DNA of 36,308 bases. Source: a virus (lineage: Duplodnaviria; Heunggongvirae; Uroviricota; Caudoviricetes). Each line of letters begins with the position of its first letter. Within the stretch, counting starts at the first letter, position 1. The notes beneath the pieces were generated by a model that did not search any database, had not been told where the DNA came from, and saw only the letters and a list, made by a program, of their open reading frames with translations. A program made the position numbers and the translations under genes. Of the stretch, positions 1,991 through 36,308 are shown piece after piece. The DNA lies in the IMG/VR virus record IMGVR_UViG_2563366905_000008. One strand, given 5' to 3'.

Positions 1991-2233
1991 TTAATCCCTG
2001 GGTGGCGGGCTGTCACCAGTCAGACCTTTCCTGCAGTTCAGTACACACTTACCATTATTATCCAGGGAAAGGGATGCCCGATTAATTGCCTGTTCACATT
2101 TATGCAGAATTTCTCGTGCCCTGGCAACAGACAAACCGCAAAGGTGATGCCTGATAATGTCTTCTGCCACTTCTGTGCTGTCAGGTTCACTGTAAGCGAT
2201 ACAACCACGTAACCCACAGTTGCGCATAAACAT
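1991..2233 (-). CDS. Small Cys-rich protein (80 aa), hypothetical; last gene of early operon
   Basis: ATG at 2233 with GGAGG 4 nt upstream, directly after the mor stop. Six Cys residues. Followed by the terminator at 1921-1962. Confidence 0.5.
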   Translation of the reverse strand: MFMRNCGLRGCIAYSEPDSTEVAEDIIRHHLCGLSVARAREILHKCEQAINRASLSLDNNGKCVLNCRKGLTGDSPPPRD

Positions 2234-2251
2234 AAAGCCTCCGCGTTATAA

Positions 2252-2638
2252 TTAATCCCGGTCGTCATCCGGTTCGTCATCGTCTTCAAATAACTGCCCC
2301 TGTAACCGGCTGATTTCTTCTTTTCTTACACGCTTCACCACGCTGTAGACCCACTGAAGCGAAACACCAAATTTGCGGGCCAGTTCGTGGTGGTTGCGTC
2401 CGTTAAACTCCCTGAAGATTTCCCGGTCGCGCTGACTGACCTTCCATACCATGCCCATCGGAAAATAAACGTTTTGCCCGCCCCAGACCTGCATCATGCG
2501 GTTCGCGACGGCCTGACCAATCTGGTCGGCAACTTCGGGCTCAATATCAATAATCTCGCGAACGGTCTCAGAGGTATGCTGTGCCAGTTCCACCAGGAGT
2601 TCCGGCCCTTTACTTCGAAACTGATTCAGGTCGCTCAT
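2252..2638 (-). CDS. mor: Mor/C-family transcriptional activator (Mu middle operon regulator-like)
   Basis: 128 aa; C-terminal HTH region REIFREFNGRNHHELARKFGVSLQWVYSVVKR and acidic tail typical of Mor/C proteins; sits after the GemA-like gene as in Mu. Confidence 0.75.
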   Translation of the reverse strand: MSDLNQFRSKGPELLVELAQHTSETVREIIDIEPEVADQIGQAVANRMMQVWGGQNVYFPMGMVWKVSQRDREIFREFNGRNHHELARKFGVSLQWVYSVVKRVRKEEISRLQGQLFEDDDEPDDDRD

Positions 2639-3059
2639 GTTTGACTCCCGCAGCTCTGTGCTGCCACTTCTTCAGTTTCTCAATAACACTGCTTGCCTGT
2701 TCAGTACTGAGCCAGCGCAGGGCGCTGATGCCCGTTTCCCGCTTGATCCACCTCGCTAATGCATTTTCTGAACGGTCACGAACAATGCCGGCAGCAGCCA
2801 TTTCAAGCCATAGCGCACGAATTTTCCTGGACTGCGGATGGTTATCCAGCGGTAAACCGGAGCTGGCTTTTCTGGCTGGTTTAACGCGAAAGCCTTTCTT
2901 TTTCATGGATTCCAGCACGCAGTTTAGTTGTGTGGTATCCATTCCTTTGGTTGAGGCTTTACCGGTCAGCCCCTGTAACATCTGGCGGTAGGTGTCTTCA
3001 TCCATACCCAGTTCATTACGGGCAATATGGATAAGCTGTATCAGGCGTTTTTTCTGCAT
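2610..3059 (-). CDS. gemA: GemA-like protein (Mu gp16 / DUF1018-like)
   Basis: 149 aa; N-terminus MQKKRLIQLIHIARNELGMDEDTYRQML matches the GemA-family pattern as I recall it; positioned immediately upstream of mor. Confidence 0.65.
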   Translation of the reverse strand: MQKKRLIQLIHIARNELGMDEDTYRQMLQGLTGKASTKGMDTTQLNCVLESMKKKGFRVKPARKASSGLPLDNHPQSRKIRALWLEMAAAGIVRDRSENALARWIKRETGISALRWLSTEQASSVIEKLKKWQHRAAGVKHERPESVSK

Positions 3060-3060: not shown

Positions 3061-3267
3061 TCATCTCCTTTTTTTCAGTCTGTCGGCAACAATGTCGGTT
3101 GCAGCTGGCAGGGTGACTGGCCAGAACAACATGACGGCGGTCATGTACAGGATGTAATGCGCGGTGTCGTAGTGCCTGCCATAGCCCAGGGAACGATGAA
3201 GTCTTGCGCTGCATGATCCTGCGTACATATACCAGAAAAGAAAACAGACAATGGTTTCAGTAGTCAT
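3061..3267 (-). CDS. Small membrane protein (68 aa), hypothetical
   Basis: Internal ATG at 3267 of track ORF 3061..3423, preceded by GGGGAGG about 8 nt upstream. Product MTTETIVCFLFWYMYAG... has two hydrophobic helices. Confidence 0.45.
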   Translation of the reverse strand: MTTETIVCFLFWYMYAGSCSARLHRSLGYGRHYDTAHYILYMTAVMLFWPVTLPAATDIVADRLKKRR

Positions 3268-3487
3268 TCTGAATACCTCCCCATTCGATATGAATATTAC
3301 GGGCAGCAATGACAGGGTCGTTATTCCACCATGCACCTGACATGTATTTTTCAACCTGTTCGCGTCCGGCAATAACACCAATTGTGATCCCCGGCCTGAC
3401 GTTCTTAAAAAAGGCGCGGGCAAAAAGGTATCTGGCAGATATTCGGCAGGCTTTTAATTTCCGGCTTTTACCTGATAGCGTAATCAT
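3257..3487 (-). CDS. Hypothetical early protein (76 aa)
   Basis: ORF tightly packed between neighbouring early genes on the same strand. Confidence 0.4.
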   Translation of the reverse strand: MITLSGKSRKLKACRISARYLFARAFFKNVRPGITIGVIAGREQVEKYMSGAWWNNDPVIAARNIHIEWGGIQNDY

Positions 3488-4167
3488 CTGGCCTCCAGTT
3501 TCTGTTGTGCCTGCCCACTGACCGGGCGGTGCAGTCTGACGTTCTGCCCTTCACGAAACCCCGCATAGCGCGAGGCGTCGCCATTGCGGCTTCTTCCCGG
3601 TTTACGCGCTCTGGTGGTTTGCGTTTGCGGGTATTTATGTTCCAGCCACTGCTGCATCAGTTCACGTTCGTCATCGGTCAGGGCGAAGGACTGTATTTCA
3701 CTGATAACGGCCAGCACCCAGCCTTCAGCAAACTGGTCACCACGGCTGGTACGGGTGGCAGTTTTTATTCTTTTGTTCTGTGTGCTGATATACTGCTGAC
3801 GCGCCTTTTTCAGCTGACGGGCCAGCACTTCCCAGGTGTATGCAGCCAGTGCCGCACGTTCCCGGTTGCCGTAGAACCCCACACCCGGATATGTGCCGGG
3901 GTGAATGATGGAGTTAACACCAAATGCCTCGCGGATGATGTTCATCAGGCCCAGCATGTAGCGCGGTGGACGGAGACTGCCTGTCGGCCAGTAATGACTG
4001 ATGGTTTCATCAATATCACTCATGGCAATGTCGGAATGTGTGATGCCGTGAACATCCATCAGTTTACGGGCACGGCGCAGTGCCAGAGCGGCCTCGTGTG
4101 GGTTGCCGGATGCGGCCAGCGCCAGCAACTTTTTCAATTTCTCAATGTGTTTATTCTGGTCTGTCAT
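3484..4167 (-). CDS. Hypothetical early protein, possibly DUF2786-like
   Basis: 227 aa; N-terminal KLKKLLALAASGNPHEAALALRRARKLM motif; stop overlaps next gene start (ATGA-type coupling). Confidence 0.6.
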   Translation of the reverse strand: MTDQNKHIEKLKKLLALAASGNPHEAALALRRARKLMDVHGITHSDIAMSDIDETISHYWPTGSLRPPRYMLGLMNIIREAFGVNSIIHPGTYPGVGFYGNRERAALAAYTWEVLARQLKKARQQYISTQNKRIKTATRTSRGDQFAEGWVLAVISEIQSFALTDDERELMQQWLEHKYPQTQTTRARKPGRSRNGDASRYAGFREGQNVRLHRPVSGQAQQKLEAR

Positions 4168-4469
4168 TGTTCAGTATCTCCGGTGTACATGACGCCCAGC
4201 CGTGCGGCAAGGCGTTCCAGTTTTTTCTGTTTGTGGAAGTCAATCAGCCGGCCCATCCCCTGAAGGCGCAACTGCTCTGTCATGATTTCCAGGTCTGCCA
4301 GCTCTGCCGCGAGGTCACTTTCGCTGCCCTGTCCGTTCAGGTTGCGGGCGGCACTGGCCGCCAGTTCAGCGGCCTCTTCTGTCAGTTTCAGGGCCTGTGC
4401 GTCCGGCCCGAAACGCTGCAGGGCCAGACGATAGAGGGCAGTGCGTGTGAGTATGGTGTTCCGTGTCAT
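4164..4469 (-). CDS. MazG-like nucleotide pyrophosphohydrolase domain protein (101 aa)
   Basis: Two acidic helix motifs, LTEEAAELAAS and SDLAAELADLEIMTEQL, resembling the EExxE/ExxD metal-binding motifs of all-alpha NTP pyrophosphohydrolases. Confidence 0.5.
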   Translation of the reverse strand: MTRNTILTRTALYRLALQRFGPDAQALKLTEEAAELAASAARNLNGQGSESDLAAELADLEIMTEQLRLQGMGRLIDFHKQKKLERLAARLGVMYTGDTEQ

Positions 4470-4478
4470 ACCGCGCCC

Positions 4479-4751
4479 TCAGTGCTTCCGGTCAACAATG
4501 ATGTGCAGATCGCCTTCTGCAGTGATTTCCATCCGGTACGGCACCTCGTGCTCTGCCGCGTGGGTGAGTGTGTTCACCAGTATCTGCAGGGCGGCCTCCT
4601 TTCCGTTAGTCGCCACAATGGCCTGCGTGGCCATGCTGATTAACGCCGTCAGGGCGCACATGATATCGGTGAGGTCACGGCATTCACACTCGTTGAGGTA
4701 CCGTTCAACAAGGGCGCGGGCGCGCTGATGTGCTTCCTGTGGGGTAATCAT
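4479..4751 (-). CDS. Hypothetical early protein (90 aa)
   Basis: ORF in the early operon with 4-nt overlap to the upstream gene. Confidence 0.5.
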   Translation of the reverse strand: MITPQEAHQRARALVERYLNECECRDLTDIMCALTALISMATQAIVATNGKEAALQILVNTLTHAAEHEVPYRMEITAEGDLHIIVDRKH

Positions 4752-4942
4752 TGCGCGTCCTCCCTGTCCGGGCGTGAGAACTCCATAACGGGCACATCTG
4801 CCGAAAAATGCTGGCTGCAGTACGGGCAGACCAGGGTGACGCGTACCGCAGGGATGTGGTATTTACCGGACATCACGGCGATGGCGCTGTGAAAACGCAG
4901 GGTTGTAATATCTCTTTCGCACTGAATACATTTAAATATCAT
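4748..4942 (-). CDS. Zinc-ribbon protein (64 aa), hypothetical
   Basis: CxxC ... CxxC arrangement (CIQC ... CPYC); AGGAG RBS upstream of ATG at 4942. Confidence 0.5.
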   Translation of the reverse strand: MIFKCIQCERDITTLRFHSAIAVMSGKYHIPAVRVTLVCPYCSQHFSADVPVMEFSRPDREDAQ

Positions 4943-5036: not shown

Positions 5037-5567
5037 TTACTGCACATCCTGCTCAAAAGGAATTATTGAAAAATCCTCAATATCGCTTTTTATGGTAATA
5101 CCGGGAATATTTTTCACGGCCTCTTTTTCATTCAGGATGGCGTCTTTATTTATTTCCTCTTTTACACGAATAAAGCGCTCAAGCCCCAGACGTCTCAGTA
5201 GTTCAATAACATTATCCGCTCCGCGAATGCTGACTGACGGCGGACGGTTTCGCCACTGCACCTCGCCGGTGGTGAGGTTAGCAAACTTCACCTTCCCGTT
5301 GCCGGTCAGTTCATCACGGTGTGCCTCACACCATGTCTGAATACCGGACTGCAGTTCGGCCATGCGTTTTTTCAGGCTCTCGGTGAGCGGGGCATAACGT
5401 GCGGTGATATCGCCAATGGCGTCATTCATTTCTGTTTCAGCCCTGACCAGTTCACGTTGTGCGTCACCGAGCAGTCTGATGCCCTCAATGACCTCTTCGC
5501 GTGTCCCTGGTACCCAGAGTGCCGCTGCGGACTTGATACGTTTTGCCCCTTTTGTACTTTTTGCCAT
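5037..5567 (-). CDS. gam: Gam-like host-nuclease inhibitor / DNA end-binding protein
   Basis: 176 aa; long stretches match Mu Gam as I remember it (RIKSAAA, ETEMNDAI, WCEA.RDELT, RPPSVSIRG, ERFIR, DFSIIPFEQ). Confidence 0.85.
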   Translation of the reverse strand: MAKSTKGAKRIKSAAALWVPGTREEVIEGIRLLGDAQRELVRAETEMNDAIGDITARYAPLTESLKKRMAELQSGIQTWCEAHRDELTGNGKVKFANLTTGEVQWRNRPPSVSIRGADNVIELLRRLGLERFIRVKEEINKDAILNEKEAVKNIPGITIKSDIEDFSIIPFEQDVQ

Positions 5568-5866: not shown

Positions 5867-7033
5867 TTAAACCCCTTTGACAACGTCAGCGTTGACCTGT
5901 GGAACCCCGATTTCAGCGGCCAGATTCATGGCGGCTATTACCAGGTTACTGACGGCCAGCGGATACAGCAGGCTGACCATATTTTTACGATGACTTCCCG
6001 GATTGCTCAGGCGGGCGCGTATGGCATCCACTGCGCTGGCGTCCATAATGTCCGTCAGTTGTTTACCGGCCCGTTGCAGTTTGAACGTCAGAAACTCTTC
6101 AAGGTTATTGTCCAGAGGCAGAAGTTCGACCACCTCACAGCGCTGAACGACTTCACGGACTTCCATATTGCGTTCAGACAGTTTTGTCGCCAGTTCCGGC
6201 TGGCCAATCAGCACGATGGACAGCAGTTTTTTGAAACCGGACTCCAGCTCAAAAAAGCGTTTGAGGTGTTTCAGTGTCGGAATAGGCAGACTGTGGGCCT
6301 CCTCAATCACCAGAACGTGGCTGAACCCCGCCTGGCTGCTGTCTTTCAGGACGCGATGCAACTGGCGAAAGCGGGCGTCCTGACTGCGTCTGATGCTTTC
6401 CAGTGGTGCGATGGTACTGATAATGGCTTCGGCAATCGCTGCTGCCTTCAGGGTTTTCCCTTTCACATCGTTGTCTTCCATAGCGATGATGTATGGCTCG
6501 ATAACAATTACCGGCGCATTCTCGCGGTTGATACGTTCAGTCAGGTCGCGGCGCAGCGTGGATTTACCCGCACCGGACTCACCGATGACGGCCATAAACC
6601 CACCATGACGGGCTGTCTGGTACAACGCCTCACGCACGTAGCGAATGTCCGGGGTGGTGAACACATCATCAGAACCCTGCATGGCTTCGTCGGCGAACGG
6701 GTCACGGAAAAGACCAAACGCTTTTTTGGTTGCCGGGAATAACACCTGTTTTTTGAGTAACATATTCTCTTCCTCACTGAGGCTCGTTTTATCTGTGGTA
6801 CCCGCTGTACGGGGCGTGGTCGCGCCCTGTACAGCATCAAAACTCTTCGCTGTATCAATCCCCTGACTTTCCAGCCAGGACGCAAGACGCCGGCGCACTT
6901 CTCCGGGGCTGGTGCGGGGCCACGCGTTATGATTCACAATCTGGGCCAGCGTGGCCTCAGAAACATCGACAGCTCTCGCCACCACCGCCTGTGGAATACG
7001 GGCCTCTTTCAGTTGCTGCTTCAGTACCAGCAT
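5867..7033 (-). CDS. Transposition ATPase (Mu B-like AAA+ protein with N-terminal HTH)
   Basis: Walker A GESGAGKST and Walker B VLVIEEAH. I place the start at the ATG at 7033 (MLVLKQQLKEA...), which has GGAGG upstream and sits just after the transposase stop. Confidence 0.85.
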   Translation of the reverse strand: MLVLKQQLKEARIPQAVVARAVDVSEATLAQIVNHNAWPRTSPGEVRRRLASWLESQGIDTAKSFDAVQGATTPRTAGTTDKTSLSEEENMLLKKQVLFPATKKAFGLFRDPFADEAMQGSDDVFTTPDIRYVREALYQTARHGGFMAVIGESGAGKSTLRRDLTERINRENAPVIVIEPYIIAMEDNDVKGKTLKAAAIAEAIISTIAPLESIRRSQDARFRQLHRVLKDSSQAGFSHVLVIEEAHSLPIPTLKHLKRFFELESGFKKLLSIVLIGQPELATKLSERNMEVREVVQRCEVVELLPLDNNLEEFLTFKLQRAGKQLTDIMDASAVDAIRARLSNPGSHRKNMVSLLYPLAVSNLVIAAMNLAAEIGVPQVNADVVKGV

Positions 7034-7043: not shown

Positions 7044-8813
7044 TCAGTTGCCGTTAACAATGCTGATAACACTGCTGCGGGCCGGTGTGGTCAGCGTGGC
7101 CATGACTTCATCCAGTGCGGCTTCCGGTACGCCGTCCGGGTACTGTGCCGTTAACTGGCGGTAATGTTCCGGCGTCCAGGTAAGGCCGTCGGCGCTGAAC
7201 TTATCGCGCAGGGCTTTCGCGGCCTCCACATGAGTCATGGGACGTTGTTCAGTGCGCGGCCCGCGTACGTCAGAGGCCTGACCACGCTTCGGCATATAGG
7301 CCGGAAGTGTGGTGTCGTCGATATGTTTATACGGGTCAAGCTGCCCGCCGAACGGCAGCGCCTTCGCCTTGCGTGCGGCGGCTGCATCTGCGGCGTTGTC
7401 TGTACCGGTAACCAGCGCTTCGGTTTCTTTTGCCGCCATCTGTGCCGGGGTTTCCGGCAGGGCTTTGTAACTTTCGCCAAATACCGCCGCGCCTTCAGCA
7501 AAGCCAAACTCGTTCTTTCTGACCTCTTCGACCAGGAAGAACGTCTCGTGGCCGTCCTCACCGGTCAGAACCACCTGTGCCACATCGCTGCGCCACGGGT
7601 TACGGGTAATCATCAGTTTTTCACCGACCAGTACGTCAGGTACCGTTGATACGTCAAATTCAGTGCCCCGGAACGAGACACGAAGTTTTGGCGTGACTTT
7701 GCGGAGTTCTGGTGCCGCCACAGCCAGTTCACGGCATACCTCAACGGAAGGCGCTTTTTTCAGCTGCTCAGCAGTAATCTTCAGCCAGATATCCGTGCGG
7801 GTTTTACCGTGGCGGCTGTGAACAGCCGTGGCGTTAAAGTGGCTGCGCCATTTCGCGGCCAGCGCGTTGAGTTCTTCCAGACTGTGAACCGGCCGGAACT
7901 TCAGACCCGGCTCCAGCTTGCGTTCGATAATGTCACGCGCCTTTTCCACCTGTCCGGTGGCGCGGGCGTTATGCGGCTTGTGCGCTATCAGGTCGATGCC
8001 CAGTGAGCGGCACATGTTTTTCGTCATACCCGCGGTGTTTGCCGAGCCGGGGTCGAGATAGAGTATTTTCGGCACGCCGTGCAGCACGTCTGCGCCGCCA
8101 CGCTCCTGCATGGCGTTGATAAGCACAGAACACAGGTTCTCACCGGATTCCGCGCCCGTCACATACTCAACGTAAATCCAGCCGCTGGCATGGTCGGTAA
8201 TCTCGTAACTCCACACGCGGTCACTGGCGATACGGGCAAGGTTAGCGGGCTTGTTCTTGTAGAACTTCGCGCTGTCCATCACCTGCAGCCCTTTATGTCC
8301 ATTGCTCAGGTAGTAAAGCGTGCAGAGTGAGGCGTCAATCTGCCAGACATGATTGGGATGCAGACTGGCCACTTCGGTATGCGGCGCAGGGGCATCCAGT
8401 TGTTCCGGGTGCAGGCCATAGTTACGCAGGGCACGACTGATGGCATCTTCGGACAACGGGAAAAACTCACCGGTGGTTTCATCTGTTCTGCCTGCGGTGA
8501 TAAAGCCGTTAGCCCGCAGGGTTTCCACTGCATCTGCGATGGAATAGAGACGCTTACCGTTCTTGCGGGTGGCCTCACGCAGTGTGGCAGATATCAGCGC
8601 GGCTTCGTCGCGGGTCAGGGCGCTGCGCCCGGCATCGGCGCGTTTTTTGCGTTTATCAGTCACAGAGACCTCCTTCAGCCTGCGCAGCAGAGTGGCGCGG
8701 GACATGCCAAGTTCAGCACAGGCAGCGTCATATATTGCACCGCGTTTACCATGCCCCGCGTCACGTGCCGCGCGGGCGACATAAACCAGTCGTTCAGTCA
8801 GGGCAGCATTCAT
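7044..8813 (-). CDS. Mu-type DDE transposase (A protein)
   Basis: 589 aa; N-terminal HTH (GMSRATLLRRLKE); integrase-core motifs VWQIDAS, LYLDPGSANT and QVEKA; GGAGG RBS. Confidence 0.9.
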   Translation of the reverse strand: MNAALTERLVYVARAARDAGHGKRGAIYDAACAELGMSRATLLRRLKEVSVTDKRKKRADAGRSALTRDEAALISATLREATRKNGKRLYSIADAVETLRANGFITAGRTDETTGEFFPLSEDAISRALRNYGLHPEQLDAPAPHTEVASLHPNHVWQIDASLCTLYYLSNGHKGLQVMDSAKFYKNKPANLARIASDRVWSYEITDHASGWIYVEYVTGAESGENLCSVLINAMQERGGADVLHGVPKILYLDPGSANTAGMTKNMCRSLGIDLIAHKPHNARATGQVEKARDIIERKLEPGLKFRPVHSLEELNALAAKWRSHFNATAVHSRHGKTRTDIWLKITAEQLKKAPSVEVCRELAVAAPELRKVTPKLRVSFRGTEFDVSTVPDVLVGEKLMITRNPWRSDVAQVVLTGEDGHETFFLVEEVRKNEFGFAEGAAVFGESYKALPETPAQMAAKETEALVTGTDNAADAAAARKAKALPFGGQLDPYKHIDDTTLPAYMPKRGQASDVRGPRTEQRPMTHVEAAKALRDKFSADGLTWTPEHYRQLTAQYPDGVPEAALDEVMATLTTPARSSVISIVNGN

Positions 8814-9728: not shown

Positions 9729-9738
9729 TGATTACTCC

Positions 9739-10047
9739 TTACAAACGACTACCTGAAATGACACGTTGGTTGATTTCGTTAATACGATCCTGCGCTCGTG
9801 CCATCTCGTTACTGTGAGCCATGGCGATCTGCAGTAACTGGATGCCAGGAGCAAAACGTCCATTCTCCAGTTTCAGGGCCAGCCCTTCTTCAATGAGGGT
9901 GTTGAGTGCCCGGTTGATGTTTGCCGGTGACTCGTGCAGTGCTGCTGCCAGTTCACCGTTGGAAATACCGTTCAGGGCATGACCGCGCAGCGCTTTGAGT
10001 ACCCGGAGGATGCGACTGCCGGAGCTTGAAACATTCGTCTTACTCAT
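9739..10047 (-). CDS. Winged-HTH DNA-binding protein, hypothetical regulator
   Basis: Track ORF 9739..10053; the ATG at 10047 has better SD spacing. Product contains an HTH-like segment ISNGELAAALHESPANINRALNTLIEEGLA. Confidence 0.5.
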   Translation of the reverse strand: MSKTNVSSSGSRILRVLKALRGHALNGISNGELAAALHESPANINRALNTLIEEGLALKLENGRFAPGIQLLQIAMAHSNEMARAQDRINEINQRVISGSRL

Positions 10048-10099
10048 CTGCATACCTCTTTTTCAATATGTGATAATCTTTTTCGCATGCTGTATCTTT

Positions 10100-10288
10100 T
10101 TAAGCGGCGTCAGTGATGGTTTTTAATCCCAGCTTGACGGCGATTTCATGGGCTTTGCCATAGTTCGCTTTTACCTGTCCATTCAGTACGCGGTAAACCT
10201 CTGCTCGGGTGTAGTTGTTCTGTTTTGCCCACTGGGTAAAGGTGATTCCGTTGCGGCGGAAATGGGCTTTGACCTGCTCTGCAGTCAT
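10100..10288 (-). CDS. Small HTH DNA-binding protein (Cro/Ner-like early regulator)
   Basis: 62 aa; divergent from the repressor gene; AAGGAGG RBS; first gene of the minus-strand early operon. Confidence 0.6.
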   Translation of the reverse strand: MTAEQVKAHFRRNGITFTQWAKQNNYTRAEVYRVLNGQVKANYGKAHEIAVKLGLKTITDAA

Positions 10289-10340
10289 TGTTGCCTCCTT
10301 TATTAACGCAATGATGTTTGCTCTATATATGTTAGATTAT

Positions 10341-26269: not shown

Positions 26270-26275
26270 CATCAC

Positions 26276-26785: not shown

Positions 26786-26860
26786 TACAGACAGCCGCCA
26801 GTAGCGGCTGTTCTGCGTTATCCCCTCACGTCTTTTCACCTTCCCCGGAGGTTAACCACT

Positions 26861-30696: not shown

Positions 30697-30908
30697 TGTT
30701 TCTTGAACATGTTACCCGTGACGGAGAGCGCTGGGATTCGCTGGCATGGCAGTACTACGGTGACCCGCTGGGCTATCCCCGGATTATTGCCGCCAATCCG
30801 CACGTGGCCATCACGCCGGTGCTGCCCTCCGGGCTGTTGTTACTGATCCCGGTGATTGAGGCTGAAGAAGCCCGTACAGAAGAGGATATTGCCCCATGGC
30901 TGAGATAA
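30693..30908 (+). CDS. Tail protein X-like (P2 gpX family)
   Basis: 71 aa; motif WDSLAWQYYGDPLGYPRIIAANPHV resembles gpX-type tail proteins. Confidence 0.65.
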   Translation: MMFLEHVTRDGERWDSLAWQYYGDPLGYPRIIAANPHVAITPVLPSGLLLLIPVIEAEEARTEEDIAPWLR

Positions 30909-32050
30909 ACAGCACTGCGCAAGTCACATCAGCGTTAACCGGCGTCAGCGATGTGCTGACACCGGTGTTCACTCTGTGGTATCTGCAGAAAAACATCACC
31001 TCTGATATCGCGCCTTATGTCACCCGTGTGACCTGGAGCGATAACATCAAAAATGAGTCCGATACCATTGAGGTGGAACTGGACGACACCGATGGCCGCT
31101 GGCTGGATAAATGGTATCCGGGCAAGGGTGACACGCTGACGCTGAAAATGGGCTATCAGGGCGAGAAGCTGCTGTCCTGCGGTACGTTCTCTATAGACGA
31201 GATCGAAGTGAGTTCGCCCGCTTCCGTTGTTTCTATCCGTGGGGTGGCCACCTCGGTTAACAGTGCCCTGCGGACTAAAACCAGTCGTGGTTTTGAGAAC
31301 ACCACGCTGGCGGCCATCGCGGGAAGGATTGCCCGAAAGCACCGGCTGAAACTGGTGGGCAGCATTGAGACCATCAGAATCGACCGGGTGACCCAGTATG
31401 CTGAAACCGACGTGGGTTTTCTGCGCCGGCTGGCCAGCGAGTATGGTTATGCAGTGAAAGTGGTCAGTGACCAGCTGATTTTTTCTCATCTGGCCACACT
31501 GCGCAGTCAGGAGCCGGTCAGGCAGTTAAAACCGCAGGATGTGGCCCGCTTTTCCCTGCGTGACACCATCAACCGGGTCTATAAATCTGCAAAGGTAAAA
31601 CACCAGAAAAGCAGCAGTAAAAAACTGATCGTCTACGAAGCTGATGGTGGCACCCGTGAAAGCGACAAAAAGCTCAAAGGTGGTAAGGTTACCAGCGCTG
31701 ACTCACTTAAAGTTAACAGCCGCGTCAGCGACCCGGACAGTGCCCGGATTAAAGCGGATTCAGCACTGGCCAGACATAACGAATACCAGCAGAACGGCTC
31801 CCTGACGCTGACGGGAACACCTCAACTGACAGCAGGCAACAAAATTGAACTGGTGGGTTTTGGGCAGTTATCCGGGCCATGGCTCATAACCACTGCCCGC
31901 CATGCGTTTGACCGTAACAGCGGCTACACCACAGAGCTGGAAGTGGCACGGGGGCCAGTCACAAGAGGGAAAAAACAAAAAACTCAGAAACTCACGGTTT
32001 ATCACCCGGATGGCAGTACATCGACGGTGATTAAGGAGAAGAAAAAATGA
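30896..32050 (+). CDS. Tail protein D-like (late control D family)
   Basis: 384 aa; position after the X-like gene and before the spike gene; basic C-terminal tail. Confidence 0.75.
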   Translation: MAEINSTAQVTSALTGVSDVLTPVFTLWYLQKNITSDIAPYVTRVTWSDNIKNESDTIEVELDDTDGRWLDKWYPGKGDTLTLKMGYQGEKLLSCGTFSIDEIEVSSPASVVSIRGVATSVNSALRTKTSRGFENTTLAAIAGRIARKHRLKLVGSIETIRIDRVTQYAETDVGFLRRLASEYGYAVKVVSDQLIFSHLATLRSQEPVRQLKPQDVARFSLRDTINRVYKSAKVKHQKSSSKKLIVYEADGGTRESDKKLKGGKVTSADSLKVNSRVSDPDSARIKADSALARHNEYQQNGSLTLTGTPQLTAGNKIELVGFGQLSGPWLITTARHAFDRNSGYTTELEVARGPVTRGKKQKTQKLTVYHPDGSTSTVIKEKKK

Positions 32051-32643
32051 CTGGTGTCACTCGTCAGGTCGGTACGGTCAGTGCCGTTGATGCCGACAGG
32101 GTTCAGGCCCGCGTTCGTCTGCCTGAATGCGATAACCTGCGCACAAACTGGCTTAACGTGCTGCAGCGCAATACCCAGGATAACAAAGATTACTGGCTCC
32201 CTGACGTGGGGGAGCAGGTTGAGGTGCTGCTCGATGCCAACGGCGAGGATGGTGTTATTCTGGGCGCGGTGTATTCAGACGTCGATAAACCACCGTTCAG
32301 TGACAAAAATATCCGGGGAACCCGGTTTGCTGATGGTGCAGAGTACAGCTACAACCGGAAGACGCACACTCTGACCATCCGGGGCGGCATTGAGCATATT
32401 GTCATTGAGTGTGGTGCTGATGTGGTATTGAAAACACAGAAAGCCACGATTGACGCACCAGAAACCGAACTTACCGGAGATCTGCGTGTCAGGGGTAAGC
32501 TGATTTACGAAGGAGGCATGGCGGGTTCTGGTGGTAAAGGTGTTACCGCGACCATCCATGGCAATATCGAGATTAAAGGGAATGCCCACTCCACAGGTAG
32601 CATGCTGTCTGACGGCCAGAACTCTAATCACCATTCCCACTGA
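32047..32643 (+). CDS. Baseplate spike/assembly protein V-like
   Basis: 198 aa, AAGGAG RBS; Gly-rich C-terminus; position before the W-like gene. Confidence 0.75.
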   Translation: MTGVTRQVGTVSAVDADRVQARVRLPECDNLRTNWLNVLQRNTQDNKDYWLPDVGEQVEVLLDANGEDGVILGAVYSDVDKPPFSDKNIRGTRFADGAEYSYNRKTHTLTIRGGIEHIVIECGADVVLKTQKATIDAPETELTGDLRVRGKLIYEGGMAGSGGKGVTATIHGNIEIKGNAHSTGSMLSDGQNSNHHSH

Positions 32644-32646
32644 CCT

Positions 32647-32666
32647 TCTTAAACGCCTTTAATATC
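32647..32666 (+). promoter_or_regulatory. Candidate late promoter element, copy of TCTTAA-N5-TTTAAWATC
   Basis: TCTTAAacgccTTTAATATC, 32 bp upstream of the W-like ATG. Confidence 0.35.
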
Positions 32667-32697
32667 GGCGTTCCCGCACAGGGGCAATACTGCCCCC

Positions 32698-33045
32698 ATG
32701 AAAACAACCTCAGTATTCTGGCAACCGACCCTGCAGGCTCCCGGCGAAATTGTCCGGGGGCTGGATGATATCCGGCAGGCGATTCAAATTATCCTGCGGA
32801 CTCCCCGCGGCAGCGACCCGCATCGCCCGGAGTTCGGCAGCAATCTGCATCTTTATATCGACTGGCCTGTAGACCGGGCCATTCCGCATGTGGTGCGCGA
32901 ATCCGTCGATGCCATCCGGCGCTGGGAGCCCCGCTGCCAGCTTATGTCAGTTAAACCCGCCGTCGACGGCGAACATCTTACGCTCCGGGTGAGCTGGAAA
33001 GGCTCAGACGGACAGACCCGGACTCAGGAGCTGCTATGGCGCTGA
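32698..33045 (+). CDS. Baseplate protein W-like (gp25/lysozyme-like fold family)
   Basis: 115 aa; motif GSDPHRPEFGSNLHLYIDWP typical of gpW/gp25-family baseplate wedge proteins. Confidence 0.75.
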   Translation: MKTTSVFWQPTLQAPGEIVRGLDDIRQAIQIILRTPRGSDPHRPEFGSNLHLYIDWPVDRAIPHVVRESVDAIRRWEPRCQLMSVKPAVDGEHLTLRVSWKGSDGQTRTQELLWR

Positions 33046-34139
33046 CAGAACCCGATTTTATTGAACGCGATGCCGACAAAATCACGGCAGAAATGATTGC
33101 GAAGTATGAAGCGGATACCGGCAAAACGCTGTACCCGGCACAGGCAGAACGTCTGCTGATTGATCTGTGGGCCTATCGCGAAATGCTGGTCAGGGTTGCG
33201 GTACAGGAGGCAGCAAAGCAGAATCTGGTCGCCTTTGCCCGTGAGCCGATGATTGATTACCTCGGTGAACTGGTCGGTGTATACCGTCTTGCCGCGCAGC
33301 CTGCCACCACCACGCTCCAGTTCTCCGTAGATGAGGCACTGGCCATTGATGTGCTGATCCCGGCAGGCACCCGCGTCAGCGCTTCCGACAGCGTTATTTT
33401 TGCCACCGATACAGATGTGGTACTGAAGGCCGGATTGCTGCTGGTCAATGTCACGTCCACCTGTACCGAACCCGGTACCGCTGGTAACGGCTGGCAACCG
33501 GCGCAGGTCAGTCAGTTACTCGATGAGATTGATAACGTCGACCTGCTGGTGAGCAATCTGACGGCCAGTTCCGGCGGTTCAGAACAGGAAGACGATGACA
33601 GGCTCCGGGAGCGTATCAGGCTGGCCCCGGAGTCATTCACCAATGCCGGAAGCCGTGGCGCATACCGCTTTCATGCCATGCAGGCCCATCCCAACATTGT
33701 CGATGTTGCTGTGCTTTCCCCGGTTCCCGGGACCGTAGATCTGTATCCGCTGCTCAGTACCGGTCTGCCGGACGGCGGTGTTCTCACGCTGGTAGAGAGT
33801 TTCTGCTCTGATGAGAAAGTCAGGCCACTCACTGATACAGTGCGGGCTAAAACACCAGTGAAGGTGGATTACACCATTGAAGCCAGGATTACGATCTATC
33901 GTGATCAGGATGCCAGGTCTGTAAAAGATGCCGCTAACAGCGCCATCCAGAACTGGGTGGCATCACGTGCCGCCACGCTGGGGCGTGATATTGTCCCCAG
34001 CCAGATTATCAGTGCATTGTCCGTTTCCGGGGTGTACCAGGTTGAACTGGTGACACCGGCACTGAGGGTAGTGGCAGAAAACGAATGGGCAAACTGTACG
34101 GCGATCACACTTAACATGAGTGGAGTGTCTGATGACTGA
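33036..34139 (+). CDS. Baseplate protein J-like
   Basis: 367 aa, overlaps the W-like stop; size and position match P2 gpJ. Confidence 0.8.
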   Translation: MALTEPDFIERDADKITAEMIAKYEADTGKTLYPAQAERLLIDLWAYREMLVRVAVQEAAKQNLVAFAREPMIDYLGELVGVYRLAAQPATTTLQFSVDEALAIDVLIPAGTRVSASDSVIFATDTDVVLKAGLLLVNVTSTCTEPGTAGNGWQPAQVSQLLDEIDNVDLLVSNLTASSGGSEQEDDDRLRERIRLAPESFTNAGSRGAYRFHAMQAHPNIVDVAVLSPVPGTVDLYPLLSTGLPDGGVLTLVESFCSDEKVRPLTDTVRAKTPVKVDYTIEARITIYRDQDARSVKDAANSAIQNWVASRAATLGRDIVPSQIISALSVSGVYQVELVTPALRVVAENEWANCTAITLNMSGVSDD

Positions 34140-34710
34140 GCCATTACAACTCCCGCCACCGCTTGAGGGTGATATCAGTCTCAGGACGCTGGGAAGACTG
34201 GCAGGGCGGCTGGATAACATCGACCTGAGCGTACTGATGGTCTTTCTCGTCGATATCGTCGACAGTTCTGCGCTGCCATGGCTGGGCGAGCAGTTCTCAC
34301 TGTCTGGCGATGGCTGGGAGCTGGCGGAATCGGACGATGTTCGCCGCATGCTTATAAAAGCAGCCATCGAACTACACCGGTATAAAGGGACGCCGTGGTC
34401 AATCCGGGAAGTTATCCGCCGTTTTGGCTTTGGTGAAGTGGATCTGATTGAAGGCACAGGTCGTCTCAGTTACGACGGCAATCGCAGCTATAACGGACTG
34501 TTTGTTCATGGAGATGCAGCCGCCTGGGCGGTTTATCGCGTTATTCTGAAACAGCCCATTACTAACGATCAGGCCGCGATGCTGCGTCAGACGCTCGCTG
34601 CATTTGCACCGGCCCGCTGCCATCTGGCCAGCCTGGAGTATCAGTCTGTGGCTATTCGCTATAACAATACCGCCATCCATGATGGCAGTTATAACCACGG
34701 GAGCAGTTGA
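34132..34710 (+). CDS. Tail protein I-like
   Basis: ATG at 34132 (MTEPLQLPP...) overlapping the J-like stop; conserved HRYKGTPWSIREV-type segment. Confidence 0.65.
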   Translation: MTEPLQLPPPLEGDISLRTLGRLAGRLDNIDLSVLMVFLVDIVDSSALPWLGEQFSLSGDGWELAESDDVRRMLIKAAIELHRYKGTPWSIREVIRRFGFGEVDLIEGTGRLSYDGNRSYNGLFVHGDAAAWAVYRVILKQPITNDQAAMLRQTLAAFAPARCHLASLEYQSVAIRYNNTAIHDGSYNHGSS

Positions 34711-36308
34711 TTATGGGAAACCTGAATGAAACAGAAAAGTGGGAAGAAAATATCTATCAACTGGAGACATCAGATCCGGTTCTGGGTGGTGCTGACGGGA
34801 TATCAAATCGAGCCCCCCGGCAACTGGCAAACAGGACGAAATGGCTGAAGAAGAAAACGGAGGAAGCCGCACAGTCACTGGCTGAACACGTGCGTTCCCG
34901 TAACCACCCGGACGCGACACTGACAGCTAAGGGGTTCACCCAACTGAGCAGTGCCACCAACAGCACCTCTGAAACGCTGGCCGCCACACCAAAAGCCGTC
35001 AAGGCTGCATACGACCTTGCAGCCGGCAAGGCGCCTGCCAGCCACACTCACCCGTGGAACCAGATAACGGGAGTGCCTGCTGCTTCGCTGACGGCAAAAG
35101 GCACCGTACAACTGAGCAGCGCCACGGACAGTCAATCAGAAACTGAGGCTGCCACGCCGAAGGCTGTGAAAATCGCGTATGATCTGGCCCGGGGAAAATA
35201 CACAGCCCAGGATGCAACAACGACCCGTAAAGGGATCGTACAACTGAGCAGTGCCACTAACAGCACGTCTGAAACGCTGGCCGCCACACCAAAGGCCGTC
35301 AAGGCTGCATATGACCTGGCTGCCGGCAAGGCCCCCGTCAGCCACACTCACCCGTGGAGTCAGATAACGGGAGTGCCTGCTGCCTCGCTGACGGCAAAAG
35401 GCACCGTACAACTGAGCAGCGCCACGGACAGTCAATCAGAAACTGAGGCTGCCACGCCGAAGGCGGTCAAGGCTGCATACGACCTTGCAGCCGGCAAGGC
35501 GCCCGTCAGCCACACTCACCCGTGGAGTCAGATAACGGGAGTGCCTGCTGCCTCGCTGACGGCAAAAGGCACCGTACAATTGAGCAGTGCCATCAACAGC
35601 ACGTCTGAAATACTGGCCGCCACACCGAAAGCGGTCAAGGCTGCATACGATCTGGCAAACGGAAAACAACCGGCAGATGCCACGCTCACTGCTCTGGCAG
35701 GGCTTGCCACTGCAGCAGATCGGTTGCCTTATTTTACCGGAGCAGACCGCGCAGCGCTGGCAACCCTTACAGCTATTGGTCGCGCTATTATCGCTAAGGG
35801 CAGTATAAAAGATGTCCTCAATTACCTTGGTTTGGGGGAAGGCTCTGCACTGCCTGTTGGTGTGCCTGTTCCATGGCCCACCGCCACGCCGCCAGCAGGC
35901 TGGTTGAAGTGCGACGGACGCTCCTTTACAAAAGAACAATATCCTGTTCTGGCCCGAGTCTACCCGACCCTCCGCCTGCCTGATTTGCGCGGTGAGTTTA
36001 TCCGTGGATGGGACGACGGACGAAAGGTTGACACCGGGCGTGCCCTGCTAAGCAGCCAGAGCGGAATGATTGAAAAACACCGTCATATTGTTGTTGCCAA
36101 TGATGGTTACGACACAAAAGATGAATGGGAACTGGCTGCGATTTTCAAAAAGACATACACACAAGGACGGGGACTTGATGCCACAAATACAGGAGGGAGT
36201 CTGATCCCATCACCGACACTTCATTCACGAGGGAGTATCGGTAATACTGGCGGGAGTGAAACCCGTCCACGAAATATTGCCTTTAACTACATTGTCAGGG
36301 CGACCTAA
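34707..36308 (+). CDS. Tail fiber protein with tandem fiber repeats and C-terminal tail-collar-like domain
   Basis: 533 aa ending with TAA at the window edge; five repeats of [LT]TAKG.VQLSSAT...ATPKAVK.AYDLA; C-terminal YPVLARVYPTLRLPDLRGEFIRGWDDG resembles the phage tail collar motif. Confidence 0.8.
   Translation: MIMGNLNETEKWEENIYQLETSDPVLGGADGISNRAPRQLANRTKWLKKKTEEAAQSLAEHVRSRNHPDATLTAKGFTQLSSATNSTSETLAATPKAVKAAYDLAAGKAPASHTHPWNQITGVPAASLTAKGTVQLSSATDSQSETEAATPKAVKIAYDLARGKYTAQDATTTRKGIVQLSSATNSTSETLAATPKAVKAAYDLAAGKAPVSHTHPWSQITGVPAASLTAKGTVQLSSATDSQSETEAATPKAVKAAYDLAAGKAPVSHTHPWSQITGVPAASLTAKGTVQLSSAINSTSEILAATPKAVKAAYDLANGKQPADATLTALAGLATAADRLPYFTGADRAALATLTAIGRAIIAKGSIKDVLNYLGLGEGSALPVGVPVPWPTATPPAGWLKCDGRSFTKEQYPVLARVYPTLRLPDLRGEFIRGWDDGRKVDTGRALLSSQSGMIEKHRHIVVANDGYDTKDEWELAAIFKKTYTQGRGLDATNTGGSLIPSPTLHSRGSIGNTGGSETRPRNIAFNYIVRAT
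34920..35663 (+). repeat. Tandem repeat array inside the tail fiber gene (about five ~37-aa units; higher-order ~300-bp period)
   Basis: Near-identical DNA segments beginning caactgagcagtgcca at 34941 and 35241, with a further copy near 35577. Confidence 0.8.

What the first reader, a model, noticed from the sequence alone, without database searches (positions are those of the whole stretch)
1991..36308. Genome layout differs from canonical Mu: early arm leftward, late arm rightward, diverging from the immunity region
In Mu all early and late genes are transcribed in one direction away from the repressor end. Here transposase, B, Gam and Mor are on the minus strand and lysis through tail fiber on the plus strand, which I recall being described for BcepMu-type phages. 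The Gam-like protein nevertheless looks very close to Mu Gam and the tail is P2-like, pointing to a mosaic.
Basis: partly seen in the sequence, partly recalled or inferred. Interest (0 to 1): 0.45.

Follow-up and report, generated by a model that had tools for sequence, protein, structure and literature searches.

The report
Ordinary BcepMu/B3-type transposable E. coli prophage
The window holds most of a common E. coli transposable prophage whose back-to-back early and late gene arms are the long-described BcepMu/B3 genome layout, so the finding is real but ordinary.

Summary
After the host gene yqhG (1-903), a transposable prophage starts at 904. Seventeen consecutive genes lie on the minus strand (1272-10288: cargo gene, Mor, GemA, Gam, ATPase, transposase, Cro/Ner-like). 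A repressor gene lies on the plus strand (10381-10728). Next comes a 2.4-kb accessory block of mixed orientation (Dam and three unknowns, 10845-13138). Then 29 consecutive plus-strand genes run from lysis to the tail fibre (13269-36308).

It is not a misassembly. 115 complete E. coli genomes carry at least 80% of window bases 1-25000 in one place, and one is collinear at about 99% from 904 to 36041. The isolated phage PhiKM is about 96% identical.

Gene by gene it is syntenic, with the same strands, with Burkholderia phage BcepMu (24-76% amino-acid identity). The early arm also matches Pseudomonas phage B3. The literature already describes this layout as an inversion of the early operon, with a Tn552-type transposase and, for BcepMu, a P2-like tail.

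The P2-like tail is a lineage trait, not a fresh import. Gam is about equidistant (62-67%) from Mu and Pseudomonas Gam proteins.

Recent mosaicism lies elsewhere: the immunity region, the TerS/TerL cassette, the Gam/DUF3164 slot, cargo genes and the invertible fibre.

Verdict: already known, low interest.

The parts
1..903 (+). Host gene yqhG, interrupted near its 3' end by the prophage. The stop codon TGA at 904-906 is supplied by the phage end.
   Evidence: 100% match to yqhG in many E. coli genomes, ending exactly at 903.
904..960 (.). Prophage left end. It begins 5'-TGAT and carries two 9-bp boxes, GAGATAAAT, at 915-923 and 938-946. These are presumed transposase-binding sites.
   Evidence: The same architecture (TGA., boxes at positions 12-20 and 35-43) occurs, inverted, at the right end of near-identical prophages and at both ends of BcepMu and B3. 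Two relatives have 6-bp target duplications.
1272..1895 (-). Cargo gene between the early-operon terminator and the left end. It encodes a 207-aa protein with a hydrophobic N-terminal half (judged by eye) and no known function.
   Evidence: PHROG 12870, unknown function. No Pfam, NCBIfam or PADLOC hit. Other prophages carry a different gene here.
1932..1964 (-). Terminator-like hairpin (14 pairs followed by a T run) that would end the leftward early transcript.
1991..2233 (-). Small ORF downstream of mor. An equivalent ORF is annotated in strain A20. Function unknown.
   Evidence: No family hits.
2252..2638 (-). The only Mor/C-family transcription activator. It is the last named gene of the early arm.
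   Evidence: Pfam Mor, E=9e-44. 54% identical to BcepMu gp01, 30-32% to Mu Mor and Mu C. There is no second copy.
2610..3059 (-). GemA / gp16 family gene.
   Evidence: 44% identical to BcepMu gp02 and 36% to Mu GemA.
3061..4942 (-). Semi-essential early genes: six ORFs, including a DUF2786/DUF7168 protein at 3484-4167.
   Evidence: The DUF2786 homologue is also present in B3 and H72.
5037..5567 (-). Gam, the Ku-like host-nuclease inhibitor.
   Evidence: Pfam Phage_Mu_Gam, E=6e-41. 63% identical to Mu Gam and 67-68% to Pseudomonas phage Gam. Absent from BcepMu, B3 and KP12, which carry a DUF3164 protein in this slot.
5867..7033 (-). AAA+ ATPase (ExeA/AAA_22 type), the transposition helper analogous to MuB.
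   Evidence: 59% identical to BcepMu gp08 and 55% to B3 ORF11. No match to MuB.
7044..8813 (-). DDE transposase of the rve / Tn552-related type.
   Evidence: Pfam rve. 68% identical to BcepMu gp09 and 57% to B3 ORF12. No match to MuA.
8817..10288 (-). DUF3102 protein (8817-9728), winged-helix regulator (9739-10047) and a 62-aa HTH protein (10100-10288). The last is the first gene of the early operon and is analogous to Cro/Ner.
   Evidence: Homologues in the same order in BcepMu (gp10, gp12, gp16) and B3 (ORF13, 14, 17).
10289..10380 (.). Divergent control region. It holds a leftward sigma-70-like promoter (TTTACA-17-AATAAT, 10364 to 10336) with a perfect palindrome ATCCCAAAAATGGGAT (10342-10357) overlapping its spacer and -10 hexamer. 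The palindrome is a candidate operator.
   Evidence: This is prediction only. Bases 10342-10603 have no DNA similarity to PhiKM, which points to a different immunity type.
10381..10728 (+). cI-type HTH repressor, followed by a terminator-like hairpin at 10814-10838.
   Evidence: Pfam HTH_3. 36% identical to BcepMu gp17, 46% to the B3 ORF18 repressor and only 45% to PhiKM. Terminator.
10845..13138 (.). Accessory block of mixed orientation: Dam methylase (10845-11609, minus), and unknowns at 11801-12016 (minus), 12015-12419 (plus) and 12395-13138 (minus).
   Evidence: Pfam MethyltransfD12. PHROGs of unknown function. Dam is 63% identical to B3 ORF48. The block is present in PhiKM, but KP12 has only the Dam gene.
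13199..13243 (+). Predicted activator-dependent late promoter 1, upstream of the holin. Motif TCTTAA-N6-TTAAAATC, 19 bases, then the -10-like hexamer GATGCT.
13269..15618 (+). Lysis cassette (holin, SLT transglycosylase, Rz-like protein) and two small conserved genes.
   Evidence: 31-61% identical to BcepMu gp21-26.
15621..17482 (+). TerS (Mu gp27 family) and TerL (438 aa, Terminase_6N/6C). This cassette differs from that of the closest relatives.
   Evidence: Pfam. No DNA similarity to PhiKM across 15615-17418. TerL is 24-25% identical to the TerL of PhiKM, KP12 and BcepMu, and 32% to that of B3.
17482..24047 (+). Mu-type head module: portal, F, G, protease/scaffold, major capsid protein, DUF2190, gp36, gp37.
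   Evidence: Pfam Portal_Mu, Phage_Mu_F, Phage_Mu_Gp36. 44-61% identical to BcepMu and 27-48% to Mu for four of the proteins.
20297..20312 (.). 16-base element TTTATAAAGGCTTTAC in the G-I gap, at 51% of the prophage length.
   Evidence: 100% conserved at the same place in BcepMu (18739 of 36748), KP12 and PhiKM, inside otherwise unalignable DNA. Function untested.
20378..20422 (+). Predicted late promoter 2, upstream of the protease gene I. This is the same position as Mu gene I's upstream gap.
   Evidence: BcepMu has TAAAGCCGATTAAAAGA at the equivalent place.
24037..34710 (+). P2-type contractile tail and baseplate module: FI sheath, FII tube, E, tape measure, U, X, D, V, W, J, I.
   Evidence: Pfam Phage_tube, P2_GpU, GPD. 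31-76% identical to BcepMu gp39-51 and 25-39% to P2.
26296..26340 (+). Predicted late promoter 3, upstream of the tail-assembly gene. A hairpin at 26277-26292, read by eye, precedes it.
32647..32691 (+). Predicted late promoter 4, upstream of baseplate gene W.
   Evidence: BcepMu has TTTTAGCCGGCTTTAATATC-N19-CAACAT at the equivalent V-W gap.
34713..36308 (+). Tail fibre gene. Its 3' part (35824-36308) belongs to an invertible segment and is in the opposite orientation from that in strain CUVET21-PYO5.
   Evidence: Pfam fibre repeats and collar domain. 51% identical to P2 H over 258 aa. Bases 35824-36308 match L006 4082-3598 on the opposite strand at 99.8%. A recombinase gene 76% identical to Mu Gin lies just beyond the window in relatives.

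Best explanation
The window holds the left 35.4 kb of a roughly 38-kb transposable (Mu-like in lifestyle) prophage, inserted in E. coli yqhG. It belongs to the BcepMu/B3 organisational class. Relative to Mu, the whole early block from the repressor gene to mor is inverted.

The control region therefore lies inside the genome at about 10.3 kb. A Cro/Ner-like gene heads an 8.4-kb leftward early operon. This operon encodes the regulators, a Tn552-type DDE transposase, its AAA+ helper ATPase, Gam, GemA and Mor. It runs towards the left end and stops at a terminator (1932-1964). The repressor gene is transcribed rightward on its own.

Inference: the single Mor/C-family activator, made last from the early operon, acts in trans on four activator-dependent promoters in the rightward arm. 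These sit upstream of the holin, head gene I, a tail-assembly gene and baseplate gene W. They would turn on lysis, a Mu-type head and a P2-type tail. Mu uses two tiers here (Mor, then C); this phage would use one.

Shown here: gene content, order and strands; the terminal repeats; 6-bp target duplications and different insertion sites in relatives; synteny with BcepMu and B3.

Inferred: the promoters, the operator, the terminators, the Mor targets and actual replicative transposition.
For: - Layout and gene identities.
- Synteny with the same strands in BcepMu for about 40 genes, and with the early arm of B3 and H72. All 14 DNA matches to BcepMu are on the same strand.
- Against Mu, mor, gemA and gam match on the opposite strand, while head and fibre genes match on the same strand.
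- Ends: TGA. with two conserved boxes, shared with BcepMu and B3.
- 6-bp target duplications: CCGGCA in strain A20 (dcuC-dpiA) and TTTCTG in strain ST69 (ssnA). This is the published footprint of B3/Tn552-family transposases (PMC8705779).
- Four different insertion sites.
- Not an assembly artefact: 115 complete genomes carry at least 80% of window bases 1-25000 in one place; one is collinear at about 99%; PhiKM is 96% identical.
- Literature on the layout.
- Late promoter motif: four plus-strand hits, all in late-arm gaps, against 0.16 hits of any kind expected in the whole window. All four have the same 19-base spacing to a -10-like hexamer, and related elements sit in the equivalent BcepMu gaps.
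- Only one Mor/C gene.
- Terminators and early promoter.
Against: - Nothing contradicts the classification.
- At the nucleotide level the window is far from BcepMu itself. Only 26% of it aligns, at 68% identity. It is therefore BcepMu-like in architecture rather than a close relative.
- The regulatory scheme is pattern-based. The motif was derived from the same four sequences it is counted on, so that count is partly circular. One of the four has 2 mismatches. No transcription data exist here.
- Only one candidate operator palindrome was found.
- The right end, and therefore this copy's own target duplication, lies outside the window.
- The accessory block at 10.8-13.1 kb has no assigned function or regulation.
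Confidence: 0.95

Rival explanations
1. The window is a misassembly or a chance juxtaposition of two different prophages, joined around 10.3-13.2 kb.
For: GC content dips to 46% at 10-11 kb, and gene orientation is mixed between 10.8 and 13.1 kb.
Against: A closed genome (NZ_CP116948) is collinear with window 904-29211 in a single 99.1% alignment, and 115 complete genomes carry at least 80% of bases 1-25000 in one place. PhiKM is collinear across 10604-13642. BcepMu and B3 have homologous genes on both sides of the same junction in the same order.
Confidence: 0.01
2. The prophage is a Mu derivative that recently inverted its early region.
For: The order mor-gemA-gam-B-A-ner-like / repressor is exactly Mu's c-to-mor block read backwards. 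Gam is 63% identical to Mu Gam.
Against: There is no detectable similarity to MuA, MuB, c or ner. Only 2% of the DNA aligns with Mu. The inverted arrangement is conserved in phages as distant as BcepMu and B3, whose transposases are 57-68% identical to this one, so it is ancient.
Confidence: 0.01
3. The prophage is a recent three-way hybrid: a BcepMu-type early region that lately acquired gam from Mu and a tail from P2.
For: Gam is absent from BcepMu, B3 and KP12. The tail proteins hit P2. The fibre is 51% identical to P2 H, and a Gin homologue 76% identical to Mu Gin lies next to it in relatives.
Against: Window, Mu and Pseudomonas H72 Gam proteins are mutually 62-67% identical, and the nearest Gam outside E. 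coli is from Pseudomonas phages. Gam sits in the same relative slot in H72, a phage with the same layout. Tail proteins are 46-76% identical to BcepMu but only 25-39% to P2, and a P2-like tail is a published trait of BcepMu. Only the fibre and invertase end looks like a comparatively recent exchange with enterobacterial phages.
Confidence: 0.05

Closest known systems
Escherichia phage PhiKM (PQ738613, filed under Bcepmuvirus) and the prophages in about 2% of complete E. coli genomes
   Same: The DNA is 95-98% identical over most of the length, with the same gene order and strands and the same Gam, Dam and accessory block. One closed genome is about 99% identical from 904 to 36041.
   Different: Compared with PhiKM, the operator and repressor N-terminus (10342-10603) and the TerS/TerL cassette (15615-17418) share no DNA similarity. 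Bases 8927-10341 are only 80% identical. The insertion site (yqhG) was not seen in the collection. The left-end cargo gene varies between copies.
Burkholderia phage BcepMu (NC_005882; Summer et al. 2004, as summarised in PMC2771037)
   Same: Two-arm layout with Mor next to the left end, a Tn552-type transposase plus ExeA-type ATPase, a cI/Cro-like pair at the interface, an SLT lysis cassette, a Mu-type head, a P2-type tail, and TG..CA ends with two boxes. Related elements occur upstream of the holin, gene I and gene W. The same 16-base element lies in the G-I gap.
   Different: Amino-acid identity is only 24-76%, and only 26% of the DNA aligns. BcepMu has DUF3164, HU and SSB-like genes instead of Gam. 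It has no Dam block; gp18-20 are all on the plus strand. It has no fibre inversion system, a different TerL (24% identical) and an acyltransferase at its right end.
Pseudomonas phage B3 and B3-like H72 (Beetrevirus)
   Same: An inverted early operon with the same gene order: Mor, GemA, DUF2786, (Gam or DUF3164), ATPase, transposase, DUF3102, regulators, then a divergent repressor. Transposase is 57% identical, ATPase 55%, H72 Gam 67% and Dam 63%.
   Different: B3 has a siphovirus tail module with no similarity to this one. Its head proteins are more distant (25-37%). Its Dam gene lies in the late arm, next to a Com-like gene.
Escherichia phage Mu (Muvirus)
   Same: The lifestyle is inferred to be the same: a transposable phage with a TG..CA end (shown at the left end here, at both ends in relatives). 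It shares Mor/C, GemA and Gam, TerS, portal, F and G homologues, the relative gene order within each arm, and a large intergenic gap upstream of head gene I. Relatives carry a Gin-type invertible fibre.
   Different: Mu transcribes its early and late genes in one direction. MuA, MuB, c and ner have no detectable homologues here. Mu has two activators (Mor, then C), while this phage has one. Mu's tail module and lysis genes are different, and Mu makes 5-bp target duplications (established knowledge) against 6 bp here.
Enterobacteria phage P2 (Peduoviridae)
   Same: Tail sheath, tube, U, D, V, W, J and I homologues at 25-39% identity, and a fibre 51% identical over 258 aa.
   Different: There is no P2-type capsid, cos, integrase, replication or Ogr/Cox control genes. 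The terminase large subunits are only 21% identical. The order of the tail sub-operons differs: here FI..D comes before V..H.

Membership tests
BcepMu/B3-organisation transposable phages (Tn552-related transposase group) | rve/Tn552-type DDE transposase with an adjacent ExeA/AAA_22-type ATPase, instead of MuA/MuB | tested here: met
   Pfam rve and AAA_22. 68% and 59% identical to BcepMu gp09 and gp08, and 57% and 55% to B3 ORF12 and ORF11. No hit to MuA or MuB.
BcepMu/B3-organisation transposable phages (Tn552-related transposase group) | [quoted passage not shown] | tested here: met
   Definition taken from PMC2771037, PMC5977238 and PMC8705779. One variation here: a 2.4-kb accessory block lies between the repressor gene and the late arm.
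BcepMu/B3-organisation transposable phages (Tn552-related transposase group) | TG..CA termini with repeated transposase-binding boxes | tested here: met
   Left end at 904, with boxes at 915-923 and 938-946. Near-identical prophages have a matching inverted right end, and BcepMu and B3 have the same geometry. The right end of this copy is outside the window.
BcepMu/B3-organisation transposable phages (Tn552-related transposase group) | 6-bp target-site duplication and many insertion sites | tested here: met
   CCGGCA in strain A20 and TTTCTG in strain ST69, both exactly 6 bp. Four different insertion loci were seen. This was tested on relatives, not on this copy.
BcepMu/B3-organisation transposable phages (Tn552-related transposase group) | Replicative transposition, and virion DNA carrying random host DNA at both ends | not testable with these tools
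   This needs virion DNA sequencing or induction experiments. Up to 4 places per genome in the table is suggestive only.
BcepMu-like myophages (architecture: Mu-type head plus P2-type tail) | Mu-type TerS, portal, F, G and gp36 head genes, followed by a P2-type FI-FII-E-T-U-X-D-V-W-J-I-H tail cassette | tested here: met
   Pfam Phage_Mu_Gp27, Portal_Mu, Phage_Mu_F, Phage_Mu_Gp36, Phage_tube, P2_GpU and GPD. Same order as BcepMu gp27-52.
Genus Bcepmuvirus in the strict sense | High genome-wide nucleotide similarity to BcepMu. The current ICTV genus guideline is roughly 70% (from my own knowledge). | tested here: not met
   Only 25.9% of the prophage aligns to BcepMu, at 68% identity, and there is no megablast hit. 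The GenBank taxonomy line nevertheless files PhiKM under Bcepmuvirus.
Muvirus (Mu, D108) | MuA/MuB transposition proteins, c/ner control, unidirectional early-to-late transcription, and a Mor-then-C cascade | tested here: not met
   No MuA, MuB, c or ner similarity. There is a single Mor/C gene and the early arm is inverted.
Peduoviridae (P2-like) | P2-type capsid/terminase module, cos ends, tyrosine integrase and Ogr-type late control | tested here: not met
   Only tail proteins and a distant TerL (21%) match P2. The ends are transposon-like.

The most novel reading that the evidence does not exclude
Nothing about the layout is new, but three side observations could be if they are undocumented.

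(a) Gam and DUF3164 occupy the same early-arm slot as alternatives in two independent pairs of close relatives: window/PhiKM versus KP12, and H72 versus B3. This suggests that DUF3164 is a functional stand-in for the Ku-like end-protecting Gam in transposable phages.

(b) A single Mor-family activator may drive all four late operons directly through a conserved element, TCTTAA-N6-TTAAWATC, centred near -42.5.

(c) A 16-base element, invariant between E. coli and Burkholderia phages, sits at the genome midpoint. Mu keeps its strong gyrase site at its own midpoint.
Probability: 0.25. Interest if true: 0.35.

Novelty: already known. Interest (0 to 1): 0.1.

Why it matters
It matters little beyond correct annotation. 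The divergent two-arm layout, the Tn552-type transposase and, for BcepMu, the P2-like tail were described between 2004 and 2018. This particular prophage is nearly identical to a sequenced phage (PhiKM) and to prophages in about 2% of complete E. coli genomes.

Practical value:
- It fixes the prophage boundary at 904.
- It shows that the element is a mobile transposable phage that disrupts host genes (yqhG here).
- It locates the truly variable modules: immunity region, terminase, the Gam/DUF3164 slot, cargo genes and the invertible fibre.

The side leads are cheap to test: DUF3164 as a Gam analogue, one-tier Mor control of four late promoters, and a conserved central element. They would add modestly to transposable-phage biology.

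Tried and rejected
- Misassembly. Rejected by collinearity in closed genomes and in PhiKM.
- Recent import of gam from Mu. Rejected because Gam is about equidistant among lineages, and the nearest Gam outside E. coli is from Pseudomonas phages.
- Function for the cargo and accessory genes (1272-1895, 1991-2233, 11801-13138). Pfam, PHROGs, PADLOC and NCBIfam gave only 'unknown function' families or nothing.
- Sequence link between the transposase or ATPase and solved MuA or MuB structures. No meaningful PDB hits.
- More copies of the candidate operator palindrome. Only one perfect copy; the 3-mismatch hits are at chance level.
- Mu gix-like crossover sites near the fibre. None within 7 mismatches. 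The inversion instead maps to repeats of about 220 bp.
- Toussaint & Van Gijsegem 2018 and Summer et al. 2004 are not held in the library. Their content is cited only through papers that quote them.
- The large protein-database searches, structure prediction and metagenome scans were not used, because the question was settled without them.

Full report
**What is in the window**

Bases 1-903 are the E. coli gene yqhG. The match is 100% in many genomes and ends exactly at 903. From 904 the sequence matches prophages found in many E. coli genomes. In 115 of 5,426 complete genomes, one place holds at least 80% of window bases 1-25000. Strain CUVET21-PYO5 is collinear with window 904-29211 at 99.1% in a single alignment, and at 98.9% on to 36041. 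The isolated uropathogenic-E. coli phage PhiKM is about 96% identical and is filed under Bcepmuvirus. Klebsiella phage KP12 is about 85% identical.

**Checking the observation**

I used ORFs, the PGAP annotation of the 99%-identical prophage and Pfam, PHROGs and NCBIfam scans.

- The minus strand carries 17 consecutive genes from 1272 to 10288. They are a cargo gene, a small ORF, Mor, GemA, six small early genes including a DUF2786 protein, Gam, another small gene, an AAA+ ATPase, an rve transposase, a DUF3102 protein, a winged-helix regulator and a 62-aa HTH protein.
- A cI-type HTH gene lies on the plus strand (10381-10728).
- A block of mixed orientation follows: Dam minus, unknown minus, unknown plus, unknown minus (10845-13138).
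- Then 29 consecutive plus-strand genes run from the holin (13269) through lysis, TerS/TerL, a Mu-type head and a P2-type tail to the fibre, which ends at 36308.
- AT skew flips at about 14 kb.
- Mu itself is unidirectional apart from c, gp15 and the alternative G-segment genes.

So the description is right, with three corrections. The element starts at 904, not 1991. A 2.4-kb accessory block separates the repressor gene from the late arm. Gam is 63% identical to Mu Gam, not 'very close'.

**Is it an artefact?**

No. The junction region is collinear in closed genomes and in PhiKM. Distant phages have homologous genes on both sides of it in the same order.

**What it is**

A gene-by-gene tblastn shows synteny with Burkholderia phage BcepMu on identical strands.

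| Protein | Identity to BcepMu |
|---|---|
| Mor | 54% |
| GemA | 44% |
| ATPase | 59% |
| Transposase | 68% |
| DUF3102 protein | 43% |
| Cro/Ner-like HTH protein | 49% |
| Repressor | 36% |
| Holin | 52% |
| SLT transglycosylase | 61% |
| Portal | 59% |
| F | 61% |
| Capsid | 44% |
| Sheath | 76% |
| Tube | 67% |
| Baseplate proteins | 48-63% |

The early arm is also syntenic with Pseudomonas phages B3 and H72, with the transposase 57% identical.

MuA, MuB, c and ner have no detectable counterpart, and there is no sequence link to solved transposase structures. Against Mu, the mor, gemA and gam matches are on the opposite strand, while the head and fibre matches are on the same strand. Mu's c-to-mor block is therefore present in inverted orientation, including the repressor gene, which becomes rightward.

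The literature describes exactly this:
- BcepMu has genes 1-13 on the bottom strand and 17-52 on the top strand, lysogeny control at the interface, a Tn552/IS1604-type transposase and a P2-related tail cassette (PMC2771037).
[quoted passage not shown] **Evidence that it is a transposon-like element**

The left end reads TGATCAGACATGAGATAAATG-N11-GTGAGATAAAT. The right ends of near-identical prophages read, inverted, TGATGCGCCGCGCGATAAATG-N11-GTGCGATAAAT. BcepMu and B3 ends have the same geometry, with boxes at positions 12-20 and 35-43.

In strain A20 the prophage lies between dcuC and dpiA and is flanked by CCGGCA. In strain ST69 it lies in ssnA and is flanked by TTTCTG. Both duplications are exactly 6 bp, which is the published footprint of B3/Tn552-family transposases. 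With yqhG here and yphD in CUVET21-PYO5, that makes four different insertion sites.

**How it probably works**

This section is inference, except where stated.

- The 92-bp gap 10289-10380 holds a leftward sigma-70-like promoter (TTTACA-17-AATAAT). A perfect palindrome, ATCCCAAAAATGGGAT, overlaps its spacer and -10 hexamer and is a candidate operator.
- The early operon would run 8.4 kb leftward and stop at a 14-pair hairpin with a T run at 1964-1932. The cargo gene 1272-1895 lies beyond that terminator.
- The repressor gene is followed by a hairpin terminator at 10814-10838, placed between it and the convergent dam gene.
- Only one Mor/C-family gene exists.
- Four late-arm intergenic gaps share the pattern TCTTAA-N6-TTAAWATC, then 19 bases, then a -10-like hexamer (nAWRCT). 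They lie at 13199 (before the holin), 20378 (before head gene I), 26296 (before the tail-assembly gene) and 32647 (before baseplate gene W). All four are on the plus strand.
- The search returned five hits in the whole window (the fifth lies in host yqhG), against 0.16 expected. That count is partly circular, because the pattern came from these same sequences.
- Independent support comes from BcepMu, whose DNA is otherwise barely alignable. It carries TAAAGCCGATTAAAAGA before its holin and before gene I. It carries TTTTAGCCGGCTTTAATATC-N19-CAACAT before gene W.
- The near-dyad would be centred at about -42.5. From memory, this is close to where Mor and C bind their Mu promoters.

I therefore propose a one-tier cascade. 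Mor, made last from the leftward operon, activates four rightward late operons in trans.

**The 'mosaic' claim**

The P2-like tail is a lineage trait. The tail proteins are 46-76% identical to BcepMu but only 25-39% to P2, and this was published for BcepMu.

Gam is present in PhiKM and in the B3-like phage H72, but absent from BcepMu, B3 and KP12. Window, Mu and H72 Gam proteins are mutually 62-67% identical. The best matches outside E. coli are Pseudomonas phages at 67-68%. There is therefore no sign of a recent transfer from Mu.

Recent mosaicism lies elsewhere:
- Against PhiKM there is no DNA similarity at 10342-10603 (operator plus repressor N-terminus, a different immunity type).
- There is also none at 15615-17418, the TerS/TerL cassette, where TerL is only 25% identical.
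- The Gam slot holds a DUF3164 protein in KP12.
- The left-end cargo gene and the accessory block vary between copies.
- The 3' end of the fibre gene (35824-36308) is found on the opposite strand in CUVET21-PYO5. Next to it in relatives lies a recombinase 76% identical to Mu Gin.
- BcepMu lacks such an inversion system. A 2,610-bp inversion in an E. coli BcepMu-like prophage has been reported (PMC11610265).

**Membership**

All architectural features of the BcepMu/B3 class that I could test are met.

- Strict genus membership with BcepMu is not met. Only 26% of the DNA aligns, at 68% identity.
- It is not a Muvirus. It has no MuA, MuB, c or ner, its early arm is inverted, and it has one activator rather than two.
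- It is not a P2-like phage, because only the tail matches.

**Verdict**

This is a routine member of a described class and nearly identical to sequences already in the databases. Interest is low. The side observations are the only potentially new leads, and they are untested: the Gam/DUF3164 alternation, the shared late-promoter element, and the invariant 16-base element at the genome midpoint.

Noticed in passing
window 5037-5567; L008 31722-32333; L009 2942-3460; L007 2581-3204: Gam and a DUF3164 protein occupy the same early-arm slot as alternatives in two independent pairs of close relatives: window/PhiKM versus KP12, and H72 versus B3. BcepMu also has DUF3164 and no Gam. This suggests that DUF3164 may be a functional stand-in for Gam.
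   Followed up: partly
window 20297-20312 (BcepMu L003 18739-18754): The 16-base element TTTATAAAGGCTTTAC is 100% conserved between the E. coli, Klebsiella and Burkholderia phages, inside an otherwise unalignable G-I intergenic gap. It sits at 51% of the genome length, the relative position of Mu's strong gyrase site.
   Followed up: partly
window 13199-13243, 20378-20422, 26296-26340, 32647-32691: Four late-arm intergenic gaps share TCTTAA-N6-TTAAWATC-N19-(-10-like hexamer). Related elements sit at the equivalent BcepMu gaps. These are probably targets of the single Mor-family activator.
   Followed up: partly
window 35824-36308; L006 1975-4082 and 4146-4718: The 3' end of the tail-fibre gene lies on the opposite strand in a 99%-identical prophage. 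There, three copies of a roughly 220-bp repeat (one direct, two inverted) and a recombinase 76% identical to Mu Gin indicate an invertible host-range segment, possibly with more than two states. BcepMu lacks such a system.
   Followed up: partly
window 15615-17418: The TerS/TerL cassette shares no DNA similarity with the otherwise 95-98% identical phage PhiKM. TerS is 48% and TerL 25% identical. The swap is clean and bounded by the start of TerS and the last roughly 60 bases of TerL.
   Followed up: partly
window 10342-10603: The operator region and the repressor N-terminus share no DNA similarity with PhiKM, and the repressor proteins are 45% identical. The two phages are therefore probably heteroimmune.
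   Followed up: no
window 1272-1895 and 904-1566: The gene between the early terminator and the left end encodes a 207-aa protein of unknown function whose N-terminal half looks hydrophobic (PHROG 12870). It differs between copies: several genomes match only from about 1566, and strains A20 and ST69 carry a different 645-bp gene there.
   Followed up: partly
window 28659-29211: The tape-measure gene contains tandem repeats of about 270 bp and is shorter here (983 aa) than in CUVET21-PYO5, whose gene is 3,213 bases long. This implies a polymorphism in tail length.
   Followed up: no
L002/L006 (NZ_CP116948.1): In strain CUVET21-PYO5 the prophage has yphD on its left flank and a truncated APC-family permease next to glsA/copA on its right flank. 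From memory, these loci are far apart in K-12. The search reports four matching places in that genome. This suggests a chromosomal rearrangement between prophage copies.
   Followed up: no
L004 right end versus L003, L007 and window-type ends: Mu's right end (TGAAGCGGCGCACGAAAAAC...CACGATAAATGCG) visibly resembles the BcepMu, B3 and E. coli-type ends (TGAAGCGCGGCGCGATATTTC...GCGCGATAAAT), although the transposases show no detectable sequence similarity.
   Followed up: no
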